From the NCBI RefSeq assembly GCF_024298765.1, contig NZ_CP101210.1: a DNA stretch of 64,000 bases, one strand, 5' to 3'. This DNA comes from Escherichia coli. GTDB taxonomy: Bacteria > Pseudomonadota > Gammaproteobacteria > Enterobacterales > Enterobacteriaceae. The notes under the pieces are model-generated. The model was not told the origin of the DNA. It did not search any database and was given only the letters and a program-made list of their open reading frames with translations. The number at the start of each line of letters is the position of its first letter. Positions within the stretch are counted from its first letter, which is position 1. The translations under genes were made by a program, and so were the position numbers. Positions 41,074 through 58,240 of the stretch are shown here, in pieces.

Positions 41074-42582
<1,509 letters not shown>

Positions 42583-43004
42583 CTAAAGTCTCCAAAAAAT
42601 TATTATCGGCAATGTCGAAACTTGCCGTTATATCTGCCACCGGAACGGGGTAACAGAGTTTATGTTTTACCAGGGCGACCGTATCCTGCCGGAAGCGCTG
42701 GTTATTCACAATCGATTTAACACACCATTTACATTAAATTTTAGTGCTCAGCGACACTATTTTTCATCAGGTTGCACTCTCTCACATTTTTTGCGGTTGC
42801 ACCTTTCAAAAATGTTAACTGCCGCAGAGAAAAAGTCTGAGTTATTTTTTTAATCCCTGTCATATCGATTTCGTTTATTAACATTTCATTCATTTTTAAG
42901 CTTGCTACGCAGGTCACATTTAACACAGTTGCACAAAGTTGCAACATCATGGATATTTCACGATAACGTTAAGTTGCACCTTTCAGAACAACAGGAGTAA
43001 TGGC
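42583..43004. promoter_or_regulatory. Divergent putP/putA control region with PutA operator motifs
   Basis: Five GTTGCA motifs at 42771, 42796, 42928, 42938 and 42973 in an AT-rich intergenic region; GTTGCA is the known PutA recognition motif. Confidence 0.75.
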
Positions 43005-46000
43005 ATGGGAACCACCACCATGGGGGTTAAGCTGGACGACGCGACGCGTGAGCGTATTAAGTCTGCCGCGACACGTATCGATCGCACGCCACACTGGTTA
43101 ATTAAACAGGCGATTTTTTCTTATCTTGAACAACTGGAAAACAGCGATACTCTGCCGGAGCTACCTGCGCTGCTTTCTGGCGCTGCCAATGAGAGCGATG
43201 AAGCACCGACTCCGGCAGAGGAACCACACCAGCCTTTCCTCGACTTTGCCGAGCAAATTTTGCCCCAGTCGGTTTCCCGCGCCGCGATCACCGCTGCCTA
43301 TCGCCGTCCGGAAACCGAAGCGGTTTCGATGCTGCTGGAACAAGCTCGCCTGCCGCAGCCAGTTGCTGAACAGGCGCACAAACTGGCGTATCAACTGGCC
43401 GATAAACTGCGTAATCAAAAAAACGCCAGTGGTCGCGCAGGTATGGTTCAGGGGTTATTGCAGGAGTTTTCGTTGTCATCGCAGGAAGGCGTGGCGCTGA
43501 TGTGTCTGGCGGAAGCGTTGTTGCGTATTCCCGACAAAGCCACCCGTGATGCGTTAATTCGCGACAAAATCAGCAACGGTAACTGGCAGTCACACATTGG
43601 TCGTAGCCCGTCGTTGTTTGTTAATGCCGCCACCTGGGGGCTGCTGTTTACCGGCAAACTGGTTTCCACCCATAACGAAGCCAGCCTCTCCCGCTCGCTG
43701 AACCGCATTATCGGTAAGAGCGGTGAACCGCTGATCCGCAAAGGTGTGGATATGGCGATGCGCCTGATGGGCGAGCAGTTCGTCACTGGCGAAACCATCG
43801 CAGAAGCGTTAGCCAATGCCCGCAAGCTGGAAGAAAAAGGTTTCCGTTACTCTTACGATATGCTGGGCGAAGCTGCACTGACCGCCGCAGATGCACAGGC
43901 GTATATGGTTTCCTATCAGCAGGCGATTCACGCCATTGGTAAAGCGTCTAACGGTCGTGGCATCTATGAAGGTCCGGGCATTTCAATCAAGCTGTCGGCG
44001 CTGCATCCGCGTTACAGCCGCGCCCAGTATGACCGGGTAATGGAAGAGCTTTACCCGCGTCTGAAATCACTCACCCTGCTGGCGCGTCAGTACGATATTG
44101 GTATTAACATCGATGCCGAAGAGGCCGATCGTCTGGAGATCTCCCTCGATCTGCTGGAAAAACTCTGTTTCGAGCCGGAACTGGCAGGCTGGAACGGCAT
44201 CGGTTTTGTTATTCAGGCTTATCAAAAACGCTGCCCACTGGTGATTGATTACCTGATTGATCTCGCCACCCGCAGCCGTCGCCGTCTGATGATTCGCCTG
44301 GTGAAAGGCGCGTACTGGGATAGTGAAATCAAGCGCGCGCAGATGGACGGCCTTGAAGGTTATCCGGTTTATACCCGCAAGGTGTATACCGACGTTTCAT
44401 ATCTCGCCTGTGCGAAAAAGCTGCTGGCGGTGCCGAATCTAATCTACCCGCAGTTCGCAACGCATAACGCCCATACGCTGGCGGCAATTTATCAACTGGC
44501 GGGTCAGAACTACTACCCGGGTCAGTACGAGTTCCAGTGCCTGCACGGTATGGGCGAGCCACTGTATGAGCAGGTCACCGGGAAAGTTGCCGACGGCAAA
44601 CTTAACCGTCCGTGTCGTATTTATGCTCCTGTCGGTACCCATGAAACGCTGCTGGCGTATCTGGTGCGTCGCCTGCTGGAAAACGGTGCTAACACCTCGT
44701 TTGTTAACCGTATTGCTGACACCTCTTTGCCACTGGATGAACTGGTTGCCGATCCGGTCACTGCTGTAGAAAAACTGGCGCAACAGGAAGGGCAAACTGG
44801 ATTACCGCATCCGAAAATTCCCCTGCCGCGCGATCTTTACGGTGACGGGCGCGACAACTCGGCAGGGCTGGATCTCGCCAATGAACACCGGCTGGCCTCG
44901 CTCTCTTCTGCCCTGCTCAATAGTGCACTGCAAAAATGGCAGGCCTTGCCAATGCTGGAACAATCGGTCGCGGCTGGTGAGATGTCGCCCGTTATTAACC
45001 CTGCGGAACCGAAAGATATTGTGGGCTTTGTGCGTGAAGCCACGCCGCGTGAAGTAGAACAGGCGCTGGAAAGTGCGGTTAATAACGCGCCAATCTGGTT
45101 TGCCACTCCTCCGGCTGAACGCGCGGCGATTTTGCATCGCGCTGCTGTGCTGATGGAAAGCCAGATGCAGCAACTGATTGGTATTCTGGTGCGTGAGGCC
45201 GGAAAAACCTTCAGTAACGCCATTGCCGAAGTGCGCGAAGCGGTCGATTTTCTCCACTACTACGCCGGACAGGTGCGGGATGATTTCGCTAACGAAACCC
45301 ACCGTCCATTAGGGCCTGTGGTATGTATCAGTCCGTGGAACTTCCCGCTGGCGATTTTCACCGGGCAGATCGCTGCCGCACTGGCGGCAGGTAACAGCGT
45401 ACTGGCAAAACCGGCAGAACAAACGCCGCTGATTGCCGCGCAAGGGATCGCCATTTTGCTGGAAGCGGGTGTACCGCCAGGCGTGGTGCAATTGCTGCCA
45501 GGTCGGGGTGAAACCGTGGGCGCGCAACTGACGGGTGATGAACGCGTGCGCGGGGTGATGTTTACCGGTTCAACCGAAGTCGCTACGTTACTGCAGCGCA
45601 ATATCGCCAGCCGCCTGGACGCTCAGGGTCGCCCTATTCCGCTCATCGCTGAAACCGGCGGTATGAACGCGATGATTGTCGATTCTTCAGCACTGACCGA
45701 ACAGGTCGTCGTGGATGTACTGGCCTCGGCGTTCGACAGTGCAGGCCAACGTTGTTCGGCGCTGCGCGTGCTGTGTTTACAAGATGAAATTGCCGACCAC
45801 ACGTTGAAAATGCTGCGCGGCGCAATGGCCGAATGCCGGATGGGTAATCCGGGTCGCCTGACCACCGATATCGGTCCGGTGATTGATAGCGAAGCGAAAG
45901 CCAATATTGAGCGTCATATTCAGACTATGCGTAGTAAAGGCCGTCCGGTGTTCCAGGCGGTGCGGGAAAACAGTGAAGATGCCCGTGAATGGCAAAGCGG

Positions 46001-46967
46001 CACCTTTGTCGCCCCGACGCTGATCGAACTGGATAACTTTGCCGAATTGCAAAAGGAGGTCTTTGGTCCGGTGCTGCATGTGGTGCGTTATAACCGTAAC
46101 CAGCTGCCGGAACTGATCGAGCAGATTAACGCTTCCGGCTATGGTCTGACGCTTGGCGTTCATACGCGTATTGATGAAACCATCGCCCAGGTCACTGGCT
46201 CGGCCCATGTCGGTAACCTGTACGTTAACCGTAATATGGTGGGCGCAGTGGTCGGGGTGCAGCCATTCGGCGGCGAAGGGTTGTCCGGCACCGGGCCGAA
46301 AGCAGGCGGTCCGCTCTATCTCTACCGTCTGCTGGCGAATCGCCCGGAAAGTGCACTGGCAGTGACGCTCGCGCGTCAGGATGCAGAGTATCCGGTGGAT
46401 GCGCAGTTGAAAGCCGCATTGATCCAGCCGCTAAATGCACTGCGGGAATGGGCGGCAAACCGTCCAGAATTGCAGGCGTTATGTACGCAATATGGCGAGC
46501 TGGCGCAGGCAGGAACACAGCGATTGCTGCCAGGGCCGACGGGTGAACGCAACACCTGGACGCTGCTGCCGCGTGAGCGCGTGTTGTGTATTGCGGATGA
46601 TGAACAGGATGCGCTGACTCAGCTCGCCGCCGTGCTGGCGGTGGGCAGCCAGGTACTGTGGCCGGATGACGCGCTGCATCGTCAGTTAGTGAAGGCATTG
46701 CCATCGGCAGTCAGCGAACGTATTCAACTGGCGAAAGCGGAAAATATAACCGCTCAACCGTTTGATGCGGTGATCTTCCACGGTGATTCGGATCAGCTTC
46801 GCGCATTGTGTGAAGCAGTTGCCGCGCGGGATGGCGCAATTGTTTCGGTGCAGGGTTTTGCCCGTGGCGAAAGCAATATCCTTCTGGAACGGCTGTATAT
46901 CGAGCGTTCGCTGAGTGTGAATACCGCTGCTGCTGGCGGTAACGCCAGTTTAATGACGATCGGTTAA
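43005..46967 (+). CDS. putA: Bifunctional proline dehydrogenase / P5C dehydrogenase and repressor PutA
   Basis: Internal ATG of ORF 42939..46967 gives MGTTTMGVKLDDATRERIKSAATRIDRTPHWLIKQAIFSYLEQLE... (ribbon-helix-helix N-terminus); 1320 aa. Confidence 0.95.
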   Translation: MGTTTMGVKLDDATRERIKSAATRIDRTPHWLIKQAIFSYLEQLENSDTLPELPALLSGAANESDEAPTPAEEPHQPFLDFAEQILPQSVSRAAITAAYRRPETEAVSMLLEQARLPQPVAEQAHKLAYQLADKLRNQKNASGRAGMVQGLLQEFSLSSQEGVALMCLAEALLRIPDKATRDALIRDKISNGNWQSHIGRSPSLFVNAATWGLLFTGKLVSTHNEASLSRSLNRIIGKSGEPLIRKGVDMAMRLMGEQFVTGETIAEALANARKLEEKGFRYSYDMLGEAALTAADAQAYMVSYQQAIHAIGKASNGRGIYEGPGISIKLSALHPRYSRAQYDRVMEELYPRLKSLTLLARQYDIGINIDAEEADRLEISLDLLEKLCFEPELAGWNGIGFVIQAYQKRCPLVIDYLIDLATRSRRRLMIRLVKGAYWDSEIKRAQMDGLEGYPVYTRKVYTDVSYLACAKKLLAVPNLIYPQFATHNAHTLAAIYQLAGQNYYPGQYEFQCLHGMGEPLYEQVTGKVADGKLNRPCRIYAPVGTHETLLAYLVRRLLENGANTSFVNRIADTSLPLDELVADPVTAVEKLAQQEGQTGLPHPKIPLPRDLYGDGRDNSAGLDLANEHRLASLSSALLNSALQKWQALPMLEQSVAAGEMSPVINPAEPKDIVGFVREATPREVEQALESAVNNAPIWFATPPAERAAILHRAAVLMESQMQQLIGILVREAGKTFSNAIAEVREAVDFLHYYAGQVRDDFANETHRPLGPVVCISPWNFPLAIFTGQIAAALAAGNSVLAKPAEQTPLIAAQGIAILLEAGVPPGVVQLLPGRGETVGAQLTGDERVRGVMFTGSTEVATLLQRNIASRLDAQGRPIPLIAETGGMNAMIVDSSALTEQVVVDVLASAFDSAGQRCSALRVLCLQDEIADHTLKMLRGAMAECRMGNPGRLTTDIGPVIDSEAKANIERHIQTMRSKGRPVFQAVRENSEDAREWQSGTFVAPTLIELDNFAELQKEVFGPVLHVVRYNRNQLPELIEQINASGYGLTLGVHTRIDETIAQVTGSAHVGNLYVNRNMVGAVVGVQPFGGEGLSGTGPKAGGPLYLYRLLANRPESALAVTLARQDAEYPVDAQLKAALIQPLNALREWAANRPELQALCTQYGELAQAGTQRLLPGPTGERNTWTLLPRERVLCIADDEQDALTQLAAVLAVGSQVLWPDDALHRQLVKALPSAVSERIQLAKAENITAQPFDAVIFHGDSDQLRALCEAVAARDGAIVSVQGFARGESNILLERLYIERSLSVNTAAAGGNASLMTIG

Positions 46968-57894: not shown

Positions 57895-58240
57895 GCCTGA
57901 TGCGACGCTTAACGCGTCTTATCAGGCCCACAAAAAGCACTGTTCCCGTAGGCCGGATAAGGCGTTCATGCCGCATCCGGCAACTGCGCCATAATGCCTG
58001 ATGCGACGCTTAACGCATCTTATCAGGCCCACAAAAAGCACTGTTCCCGTAGGCCGGATAAGGCGTTCTCGCCGCATCCGGCAACTGCGCCATAATGCCT
58101 GATGCGACGCTTAACGCATCTTATCAGGCCCACAAAAAGCACTGTTCCCGTAGGCCGGATAAGGCGTTCTCGCCGCATCCGGCAACTGCGCACTAATGCC
58201 TGATGCGACGCCTGCCGCGTCTTATCAGGCCTACAAACGG
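57895..58240. repeat. Tandem BIME/REP cluster (about 3.4 units of ~100 bp)
   Basis: tgcctgatgcgacgcttaacgc(g/a)tcttatcaggcccacaaaaagcactgttcccgtaggccggataaggcgtt...gccgcatccggcaactgcgccataa repeated head to tail from 57895, 57995, 58096 and 58197. Confidence 0.85.

What the first reader, a model, noticed from the sequence alone, without database searches (positions are those of the whole stretch)
42583..43004. Five GTTGCA PutA operator motifs in the put control region
GTTGCA occurs five times (42771, 42796, 42928, 42938, 42973) in the divergent putP/putA intergenic region, matching the known autoregulation by PutA binding to this motif.
Basis: partly seen in the sequence, partly recalled or inferred. 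Interest (0 to 1): 0.2.

Follow-up and report, generated by a model that had tools for sequence, protein, structure and literature searches.

The report
Known PutA operators between putP and putA
The five GTTGCA motifs are real and are the already well-characterised binding sites through which the E. coli PutA enzyme-repressor shuts off its own gene and the proline transporter gene, so this is an ordinary, textbook regulatory region.

Summary
GTTGCA occurs on the + strand at 42771, 42796, 42928, 42938 and 42973, inside the 422-bp spacer (42583-43004) between putP (41074-42582, -) and putA (43005-46967, +). A sixth hit on the - strand (42940) arises only because site 4 is the palindrome GTTGCAAC.

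The hexamer is not enriched in the window overall (50 hits against 53.6 expected). The local cluster is: 6 hits against 0.29 expected, and none of 20,000 shuffles gave five or more on one strand.

The window is E. coli, and K-12 has the five sites at identical offsets. The published PutA consensus cGGTTGCACc (PDB 2RBF) equals site 2 exactly. The PutA ribbon-helix-helix domain is identical to the crystallised one.

Sites 1-4 are exact in 68-77 of 77 other Enterobacterales species, with fixed 25-bp and 10-bp spacing. Site 5 is exact in 0 of 77, so it is specific to E. coli.

Sites 3 and 4 overlap the predicted putA core promoter. Sites 1 and 2 lie 95-125 bp upstream of the mapped putP TSS (42676).

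The feature is already known and interest is low. By-products are an E. coli-only site 5, a natural 177-bp deletion between the 13-bp repeat shared by sites 2 and 5, and a probably spurious annotated ORF in the spacer.

The parts
41074..42582 (-). putP, sodium/proline symporter (502 aa), one of the two repressed genes
   Evidence: ORF; NCBIfam NF011948 equivalog, 1143 bits against a cutoff of 955; annotated putP in the 100% identical strain 104
42676..42676 (-). Major mapped putP transcription start (K-12 coordinate 1078434, 94-nt leader)
   Evidence: Kim et al. 2012 supplementary file 2 and Cappable-seq. The 51-nt upstream sequence printed by Kim et al. is found exactly at window 42676-42726 on the - strand
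42683..42711 (-). putP P1 core promoter inferred from the mapped TSS: -35 TTGTGA (42711-42706), 17-bp spacer, -10 CAGGAT (42688-42683)
   Evidence: Read from the sequence relative to the TSS. Both hexamers are 91-92% conserved across 77 species, against a spacer mean of 60%
42706..42733 (-). Probable ArcA-P binding site: direct repeats TGTAA (42733-42729), TGTTA (42722-42718; 11 bp apart), TGTGA (42710-42706; 12 bp apart). It is not a PutA site but is part of the same control region
   Evidence: Geometry. It matches the description in PMC3798270 of the putP P1 footprint, where DR1 and DR2 are protected and DR3 at 12-bp spacing is not. Conservation 87-97%. The assignment of coordinates is my inference
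42770..42777 (+). PutA operator 1: GGTTGCAC (core GTTGCA 42771-42776); -100..-95 from the putP TSS
   Evidence: 8/8 match to the read-out bases; exact GTTGCA in 70 of 77 other species
42794..42803 (+). PutA operator 2: cGGTTGCACc (core 42796-42801); -125..-120 from the putP TSS. It shares the 13-mer GTTGCACCTTTCA with site 5
   Evidence: identical to the published consensus for 2RBF (PMC4655474); exact in 68 of 77 species, the rest being one-base variants
42927..42934 (+). PutA operator 3: aGTTGCAC (core 42928-42933), overlapping the predicted putA -35 (TTGCAC, 42929-42934). This strain has A at 42927 where K-12 and 76 of 77 other species have G
   Evidence: core exact in 77 of 77 species; only 89 of 5418 E. 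coli genomes share this exact 40-mer
42937..42945 (+). PutA operator 4: aGTTGCAAc (core 42938-42943), a palindrome that gives the extra - strand hit at 42940. It lies in the spacer of the predicted putA promoter, 10 bp from site 3
   Evidence: GTTGCA....GTTGCAAC present once in all 80 loci; exact in 77 of 77 species
42952..42957 (+). Predicted putA -10 hexamer GATATT (predicted TSS near 42964). This is a prediction, not a mapped feature
   Evidence: Sequence; 97% conserved across 77 species; part of the invariant block TTAACAnnGTTGCAcaaaGTTGCAACat-N4-GATAtt. The consensus scan does not report it because the -35 matches only 3/6. No putA TSS was found in the datasets I could read
42972..42979 (+). 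PutA operator 5: aGTTGCAC (core 42973-42978), 32 bp upstream of the putA ATG and about +10 from the predicted putA TSS. E. coli-specific
   Evidence: Exact in 0 of 77 other species, including E. albertii. The surrounding 40-mer is identical to the window or K-12 allele in 4260 + 1115 of 5420 E. coli genomes
42993..42997 (+). putA Shine-Dalgarno AGGAG
   Evidence: Sequence; 88% conserved
43005..46967 (+). putA, trifunctional repressor / proline dehydrogenase / P5C dehydrogenase (1320 aa). Residues 1-52 (43005-43160) form the ribbon-helix-helix DNA-binding domain that reads the operators
   Evidence: NCBIfam NF008772 equivalog, 2659 bits against a cutoff of 1750. Residues 1-52 match PDB 2GPE, 2RBF and 2AY0 at E about 1e-30, and residues 1-60 are shown identical to 4O8A. 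The segment TTMGVKLD is invariant in 76 species

Best explanation
The five GTTGCA motifs are the operators O1-O5 of the E. coli put control region. When proline is scarce, PutA is cytoplasmic. Its N-terminal ribbon-helix-helix dimer inserts its beta-ribbon into the major groove at each GTTGCA, reading about 8 bp (GGTTGCAC). This represses the divergent putA and putP genes. Proline reduces the FAD of PutA, which drives the protein to the membrane, where it works as an enzyme, and the operators are vacated. In this window, O3 and O4 sit on the predicted -35 hexamer and spacer of the putA promoter, and O5 sits just downstream of the predicted start, so bound PutA should exclude or block RNA polymerase at putA. 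O1 and O2 lie 95-125 bp upstream of the mapped putP start, so they must act on putP by something other than simple occlusion of that core promoter. What is shown here: motif positions, enrichment, strand bias, deep conservation of O1-O4, identity of the DNA-binding domain, the position of the putP start, and K-12 equivalence. What rests on established knowledge: PutA binding to GTTGCA and the redox switch. What is inferred: the putA promoter position, the occlusion mechanism, and how O1 and O2 act.
For: The spacer is E. coli, present in 5420 of 5426 genomes, and K-12 has identical motif offsets (-234, -209, -77, -67, -32 from the putA ATG). The published consensus cGGTTGCACc, with GGTTGCAC as read-out bases from PDB 2RBF (PMC4655474), equals site 2. 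Sites 1 and 2 match 8/8, sites 3 and 5 match 7/8, and site 4 matches 6/8. PutA gSELEX gives a single peak at the putA/putP spacer (PMC8249747), and EMSA on 420-bp put control DNA gives a Kd of about 45-58 nM (PMC5293562). The RHH domain matches the solved structures and is identical to 4O8A over residues 1-60. Phylogenetic footprint: the O1-O4 hexamers are 97-100% identical in 77 non-E. coli species against 60% for the spacer, and exact in 70, 68, 77 and 77 of 77. Spacing is constant at 25 and 10 bp. There are 301 hits on the putA-sense strand against 13 non-palindromic hits on the other strand, with about 8 expected by chance per strand. The RHH beta-strand TTMGVKLD is invariant in the same species. 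The putP TSS is at 42676. The invariant block joining O3, O4 and GATATT is shown.
Against: No binding experiment exists for this strain, and none can be done here. The paper that mapped the operators could not be read, so the numbering, the split of three sites for putA and two for putP, and the affinities are from my memory of its abstract. GTTGCA alone is unspecific: there are 44 other copies in the window, at chance frequency. O5 is not conserved outside E. coli, so conservation gives it no support. O1 and O2 do not overlap the mapped putP core promoter, which leaves the putP mechanism unexplained. The putA promoter is only predicted, its -35 matches 3/6, and the consensus scan does not report it. 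This strain carries a rare A at the 5' read-out position of O3.
Confidence: 0.95

Rival explanations
1. The repeated hexamers are conserved because they are promoter elements (GTTGCA/TTGCAC resembles the sigma-70 -35 hexamer TTGACA) or sites for another regulator of this spacer such as ArcA or CRP, and not because PutA binds them.
For: O3 overlaps the predicted putA -35. The spacer does carry other regulators' sites: ArcA-P footprints putP P1 (PMC3798270). A weak CRP-like match, TGCTACGCAGGTCACA, lies at 42903.
Against: O1 and O2 are at -95..-125 from the mapped putP TSS, which is not a -35 position. Conservation extends over the 8-bp GGTTGCAC that the RHH reads, not over the TTGACA pattern. 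The ArcA repeats (TGTAA/TGTTA) are a different sequence at a different place. The CRP scan at 3 mismatches is at chance level (216 against 220). PutA alone selects this spacer in gSELEX.
Confidence: 0.03
2. The cluster is a chance or compositional effect of an A+T-rich spacer.
For: The hexamer occurs at chance frequency in the window as a whole, and the spacer is 38.9% G+C.
Against: None of 20,000 dinucleotide-preserving shuffles of the spacer gave 5 or more on a strand, and the Poisson P is about 7e-7. The same motifs occur at the same spacing in 77 other species.
Confidence: 0.005
3. The motifs are constrained as codons of the 69-aa 'hypothetical protein' that PGAP annotates on the - strand at 42741-42950 (WP_000979523.1 / WP_000979516.1).
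For: The ORF exists and is annotated in RefSeq genomes. It covers sites 1-4.
Against: The longest ATG-started - strand ORF over this stretch varies from 0 to 126 aa among 80 loci, and from 47 to 69 aa within E. coli. The middle of the ORF (42741-42760 and 42830-42878) is the least conserved part of the spacer, while the conserved blocks are short and operator-sized.
Confidence: 0.01

Closest known systems
E. coli K-12 put control region operators O1-O5 (Zhou et al. 2008, J Mol Biol 381:174; PDB 2RBF)
   Same: Same species, same 422-bp spacer, and the same five GTTGCA positions relative to both start codons. Site 2 equals the crystallised consensus cGGTTGCACc. The PutA RHH domain matches the crystallised one.
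   Different: There are five base differences from K-12 in the spacer (42873, 42912, 42926-27, 42985). One of them changes the 5' read-out G of O3 to A, a rare allele (89 of 5418 genomes share the exact 40-mer). Another changes the 3' flank of O5 (CCTTTCA here, CCTTTCT in K-12).
put control regions of Salmonella, Klebsiella, Citrobacter, Enterobacter, Serratia, Yersinia and Pantoea
   Same: Divergent putP/putA genes, an O1-O2 pair 25 bp apart, an O3-O4 pair 10 bp apart with O4 always GTTGCAAC, an invariant GATAtt after O4, and an invariant RHH beta-strand.
   Different: They have four sites, not five. The putA-proximal O5 is absent as an exact motif in all 77. A few have an extra - strand copy at -42 or about -102.
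Pseudomonas putida PutA RHH domain and its DNA complex (PDB 2JXG/2JXH/2JXI)
   Same: Homologous RHH domain (E = 4.7e-20 to the window PutA). From memory, it recognises the same GTTGCA core.
   Different: It is a different family (Pseudomonadaceae). Its control region was not examined here.
Other ribbon-helix-helix repressors (Arc, Mnt, MetJ, CopG, NikR)
   Same: A beta-ribbon reads a short motif in the major groove, and repression uses several short repeated sites (PMC2777438; CopG-family hits).
   Different: Those proteins usually bind as dimers of dimers to adjacent inverted or tandem half-sites. PutA appears to bind as a single dimer per site. Its five sites all face one way and are spread over 200 bp, and the repressor is fused to a 1,270-residue membrane-switching enzyme.

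Membership tests
PutA operator array of the enterobacterial put control region | Lies in the spacer between divergently transcribed putP and putA | tested here: met
   putP 41074-42582 (-) and putA 43005-46967 (+), both NCBIfam equivalog hits above cutoff; all five motifs lie in 42583-43004
PutA operator array of the enterobacterial put control region | Each site contains GTTGCA and approaches the read-out sequence GGTTGCAC | tested here: met
   Five exact cores. Matches to GGTTGCAC are 8/8, 8/8, 7/8, 6/8 and 7/8. The consensus is from PMC4655474
PutA operator array of the enterobacterial put control region | [quoted passage not shown] | tested here: met
   NF008772 over residues 1-1320. Residues 1-52 match PDB 2GPE/2RBF/2AY0, and residues 1-60 are identical to 4O8A
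PutA operator array of the enterobacterial put control region | Positions coincide with the experimentally defined operators of E. coli K-12 | tested here: met
   A K-12 derivative (XL1-Blue) has GTTGCA at the same five offsets and nowhere else on that strand of the spacer. That the K-12 operators are 'five sites each containing GTTGCA' is from my memory of Zhou et al. 2008, which could not be read
PutA operator array of the enterobacterial put control region | Clustering beyond chance and evolutionary conservation as sites | tested here: met
   for O1-O4. Conservation outside E. coli is not met for O5 (0 of 77), although O5 is fixed within E. coli
PutA operator array of the enterobacterial put control region | PutA protein physically binds these sites and represses putA/putP in a proline-reversible way | not testable with these tools
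   Only literature for K-12 is available: gSELEX (PMC8249747) and EMSA on put control DNA (PMC5293562)

The most novel reading that the evidence does not exclude
Operator 5 (42973) is a recent, E. coli-lineage-specific addition to an otherwise ancient four-operator array. It arose by point changes next to a pre-existing ACCTTT flank (E. albertii has gCTATACCTTTA there). This created a 13-bp direct copy of the high-affinity operator 2 just downstream of the putA start. The result would be tighter putA autorepression in E. coli than in its relatives, and as a side effect a direct repeat that occasionally deletes the whole putA promoter, as in strain 2013C-3492.
Probability: 0.4. Interest if true: 0.2.

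Novelty: already known. Interest (0 to 1): 0.08.

Why it matters
It matters little as a discovery. The put control region and its GTTGCA operators have been a model for trigger-enzyme regulation since the 1980s, and were structurally explained in 2008. Three small points may be useful to annotators or to people who study PutA. First, RefSeq carries a probably spurious 69-aa ORF across operators 1-4. Second, only four of the five operators are conserved beyond E. coli, so conclusions about the fifth site should not be transferred to Salmonella or Klebsiella. Third, the two putP-side operators sit about 100 bp upstream of the mapped putP start, so how they repress putP is not explained by simple promoter occlusion.

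Tried and rejected
1. I tried to read the primary and review literature on operator mapping: PMC2665032, PMC2664619, PMC3715380, PMC2666929, PMC3234807, PMC5650515 and PMC1390768. None is held. Full-text searches for PutA with GTTGCA found nothing relevant.

2. A CRP consensus scan with 3 mismatches was uninformative: 216 matches against 220 expected. I do not claim any CRP site.

3. The sigma-70 consensus scan found only one spacer hit on the - strand (ATGAAA/TAAAAT, 42767-42738). That hit lies in a poorly conserved stretch and does not fit the mapped TSS, so I rejected it as the main putP promoter.

4. I looked for a mapped putA TSS. The - strand part of the Cappable-seq file was cut when stored. 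Kim et al. 2012 list no putA TSS. Thomason et al. 2015 is not held. The putA promoter therefore stays a prediction.

5. I considered TTAACA (42920-42925) as the putA -35, but it would need a 19-bp spacer to CATCAT, so I rejected it.

6. I checked the second-densest GTTGCA cluster (29804-30165) as a possible second PutA target. It is spread over the ycdZ and ycdY coding sequence and their spacer in mixed orientation, and gSELEX shows no second target, so I rejected it.

7. I considered the annotated 69-aa ORF as the source of constraint and rejected it.

Full report
**Observation.** Reading 42400-43200 and searching the window for GTTGCA confirms + strand copies at 42771, 42796, 42928, 42938 and 42973, exactly as stated. 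There is one more hit on the - strand, at 42940. It arises because site 4 reads GTTGCAAC (42938-42945), which is its own reverse complement, so it is not an independent site.

The interval 42583-43004 is exactly the spacer between the start codon of a 502-aa ORF on the - strand (41074-42582) and the ATG at 43005 of a 1320-aa ORF on the + strand (43005-46967).

**Is it more than chance?** The hexamer by itself is not special: 50 copies in 64 kb against 53.6 +/- 6.6 in shuffles. The clustering is special:
- There are six hits in 422 bp where 0.29 are expected from the rest of the window (Poisson about 7e-7, about 1e-4 after allowing for all windows).
- No other 422-bp stretch holds more than four.
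- None of 20,000 dinucleotide-preserving shuffles of the spacer gave five or more on one strand.
- GTTGCA is the most repeated hexamer in the spacer (all).

**What the locus is.** The two ORFs are the sodium/proline symporter PutP (NF011948, 1143 bits) and the trifunctional PutA (NF008772, 2659 bits over residues 1-1320). The spacer is present in 5420 of 5426 complete E. coli genomes at 95% identity or more, and is 100% identical to strain 104.

The first 52 residues of PutA match the crystallised ribbon-helix-helix (RHH) domain (PDB 2GPE, 2AY0, the DNA complex 2RBF). Residues 1-60 are identical to 4O8A.

**Comparison with the characterised control DNA.** I could not open the paper that mapped the operators (Zhou et al. 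2008, J Mol Biol 381:174; PMC2665032) or several related manuscripts. What I state about it comes from my memory of its abstract:
- Five operators, each containing GTTGCA, were identified by gel shift.
- Three of them are needed for putA repression and two for putP repression.
- There is a 2.25-A structure of PutA52 on the 21-bp operator 2.
- The flanking bases of operator 4 lower affinity 15-fold.

Readable sources support the essentials:
- PMC4655474 tabulates the PutA consensus as cGGTTGCACc, with GGTTGCAC as the bases read in 2RBF.
- PMC8249747 reports that in genomic SELEX PutA binds only the putA/putP spacer.
- PMC5293562 describes the RHH domain (residues 1-52), binding to 420-bp put control DNA with a Kd of about 45-58 nM, and the proline- and redox-driven switch from DNA to membrane.
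- PMC2777438 notes that PutA appears to bind DNA as a single RHH dimer.

In the window, cGGTTGCACc occurs once, at 42794-42803, which is the second motif counted from putP. A K-12 derivative (XL1-Blue) has a 422-bp spacer with GTTGCA at the same five offsets from the putA ATG (-234, -209, -77, -67, -32) and nowhere else on that strand. Since K-12 has only these five GTTGCA-containing places, they must be the five published operators. The natural numbering is O1 = 42771, O2 = 42796, O3 = 42928, O4 = 42938 and O5 = 42973.

Matches to the 8-bp read-out sequence are 8/8, 8/8, 7/8, 6/8 and 7/8. O4 has the most deviant flanks, which agrees with what I remember of the affinity data.

**Independent test by comparative genomics.** A scan of one genome per species with PutA residues 1-250 returned 80 loci, from Escherichia, Citrobacter, Salmonella, Klebsiella, Enterobacter and Kosakonia to Serratia, Yersinia, Pantoea and Erwinia. 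I delimited each putP-putA spacer with tblastn. The findings are:
- All 80 loci carry GTTGCA-N4-GTTGCAAC exactly once.
- Most carry a second pair 25 bp apart, about 133 bp further upstream.
- In a MAFFT alignment of the window against 77 non-E. coli spacers, the window bases of O1-O4 are 97-100% conserved, against a spacer mean of 60%.
- Exact GTTGCA is found at O1, O2, O3 and O4 in 70, 68, 77 and 77 of 77 species. The exceptions are mostly one-base variants such as GTTGTA, GTTGCG and GTTACA.
- The 5' G and 3' C of GGTTGCAC are conserved too.
- The motifs are strongly oriented. There are 301 hits on the putA-sense strand and 13 non-palindromic hits on the other, where about 8 per strand are expected by chance.
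- The DNA-reading N-terminal strand of PutA, TTMGVKLD, is invariant in all 76 species with a clean start.

**Site 5 is the exception.** Its window bases are only 20% conserved, and no other species has GTTGCA there, including the sister species E. albertii, which reads gCTATACCTTTA. Within E. coli it is essentially fixed. The 40-mer around it is identical to the window allele in 4260 genomes and to the K-12 allele (one change, 3' of the core) in 1115, out of 5420. O5 shares the 13-mer GTTGCACCTTTCA with O2.

**Placement relative to promoters.** Two open datasets put the main putP start at K-12 coordinate 1078434, with a 94-nt leader (Cappable-seq, PMC4782308; Kim et al. 2012, PMC3415461). The 51-nt upstream sequence printed by Kim et al. 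is found exactly at window 42676-42726 on the - strand, so the start is at 42676. This implies a -35 TTGTGA (42711-42706) and a -10 CAGGAT (42688-42683), both over 90% conserved.

O1 and O2 therefore lie at -95..-100 and -120..-125. They are upstream of this core promoter and do not overlap it.

No putA start was available. The invariant block TTAACAnnGTTGCAcaaaGTTGCAACat-N4-GATAtt suggests -35 TTGCAC (42929-42934), a 17-bp spacer and -10 GATATT (42952-42957), with a start near 42964. That would put O3 on the -35, O4 in the spacer and O5 near +10. This is a prediction. The -35 matches only 3/6, and the consensus scan does not report it.

**Mechanism.** With oxidised FAD and low proline, PutA dimers occupy the operators through their single RHH dimer. 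Occupancy of O3 and O4 (and O5 in E. coli) should exclude or block RNA polymerase at putA. Proline reduces the flavin and the protein moves to the membrane, which relieves repression. That part is established knowledge combined with my positional inference. How O1 and O2 repress putP from about 100 bp upstream is not explained by the anatomy. Interference with an upstream activator or an alternative promoter, or cooperation with O3-O5, are possibilities I could not test.

**Rivals.** I considered three and rejected them:
- A chance or compositional effect is excluded.
- Constraint from promoter hexamers or another factor does not fit the position of O1 and O2, or the 8-bp conservation pattern. 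The ArcA repeats are a different sequence at a different place.
- Constraint from the annotated 69-aa ORF (42741-42950, - strand) is unlikely. The ORF is not maintained: 0-126 aa across species and 47-69 aa within E. coli. Its central part is the least conserved part of the spacer.

**Other features of the spacer.** A conserved block at 42706-42733 carries three direct repeats on the putP strand: TGTAA, TGTTA (11 bp apart) and TGTGA (12 bp apart). This geometry matches the published description of the ArcA-P footprint at putP P1, where DR1 and DR2 are protected and a DR3 at 12-bp spacing is not (PMC3798270).

**Verdict.** Interest is low.

Noticed in passing
window 42973-42985 vs 42796-42808; L085 (E. 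coli 2013C-3492, NZ_CP027445.1) 1288-1532: Sites 2 and 5 share the 13-mer GTTGCACCTTTCA as a direct repeat 177 bp apart. Strain 2013C-3492 has a 245-bp spacer with a clean 177-bp deletion whose ends lie in these repeats. The deletion removes sites 3 and 4 and the predicted putA promoter. It is rare: only about 2-8 of 5420 genomes lack full coverage of the region.
   Followed up: partly
window 42973-42978: Operator 5 is exact in 0 of 77 other Enterobacterales species, including E. albertii, but is fixed in E. coli. The ancestral array therefore has four operators.
   Followed up: yes
window 42741-42950 (- strand): RefSeq/PGAP annotates a 69-aa 'hypothetical protein' (WP_000979523.1 / WP_000979516.1) inside the put control region, across operators 1-4. 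The ORF length is not conserved (0-126 aa across species, 47-69 aa within E. coli), so it is probably a spurious call.
   Followed up: partly
window 42926-42927: This strain has CA where K-12 has TG. At 42927, the 5' read-out base of operator 3, it has A where K-12 and 76 of 77 other species have G. Only 89 of 5418 E. coli genomes share the exact 40-mer.
   Followed up: partly
window 42706-42733 (- strand): Three direct repeats, TGTAA / TGTTA / TGTGA, at 11-bp and 12-bp spacing, 87-97% conserved, overlap the -35 region of putP P1. The geometry matches the published ArcA-P footprint description for putP.
   Followed up: partly
window 42640-42648 and 42683-42700: Strongly conserved blocks (CGGAACGGGG in the putP leader at about +28..+36, and ATCCTGCCGGAAGCG around the -10) within an otherwise variable spacer. 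The leader block has no explanation here.
   Followed up: no
window 30019-30071 (ycdZ-ycdY spacer) and 29804, 30160: This is the only other local concentration of GTTGCA: 4 copies in 360 bp, in mixed orientation. The short spacer holds an inverted pair TGCAACA-N10-TGTTGCA, followed by a near-perfect CRP-like site AGTGATGTAGATCACA (30055, 1 mismatch). It is probably unrelated to PutA.
   Followed up: partly
window 57917-58134: The sequences TCTTATCAGGCCCACA and TGCGACGCTTAACGCA recur with a 101-bp period (57917, 58018, 58119 and 58002, 58103). This looks like a tandem array of REP/BIME-type extragenic repeats.
   Followed up: no
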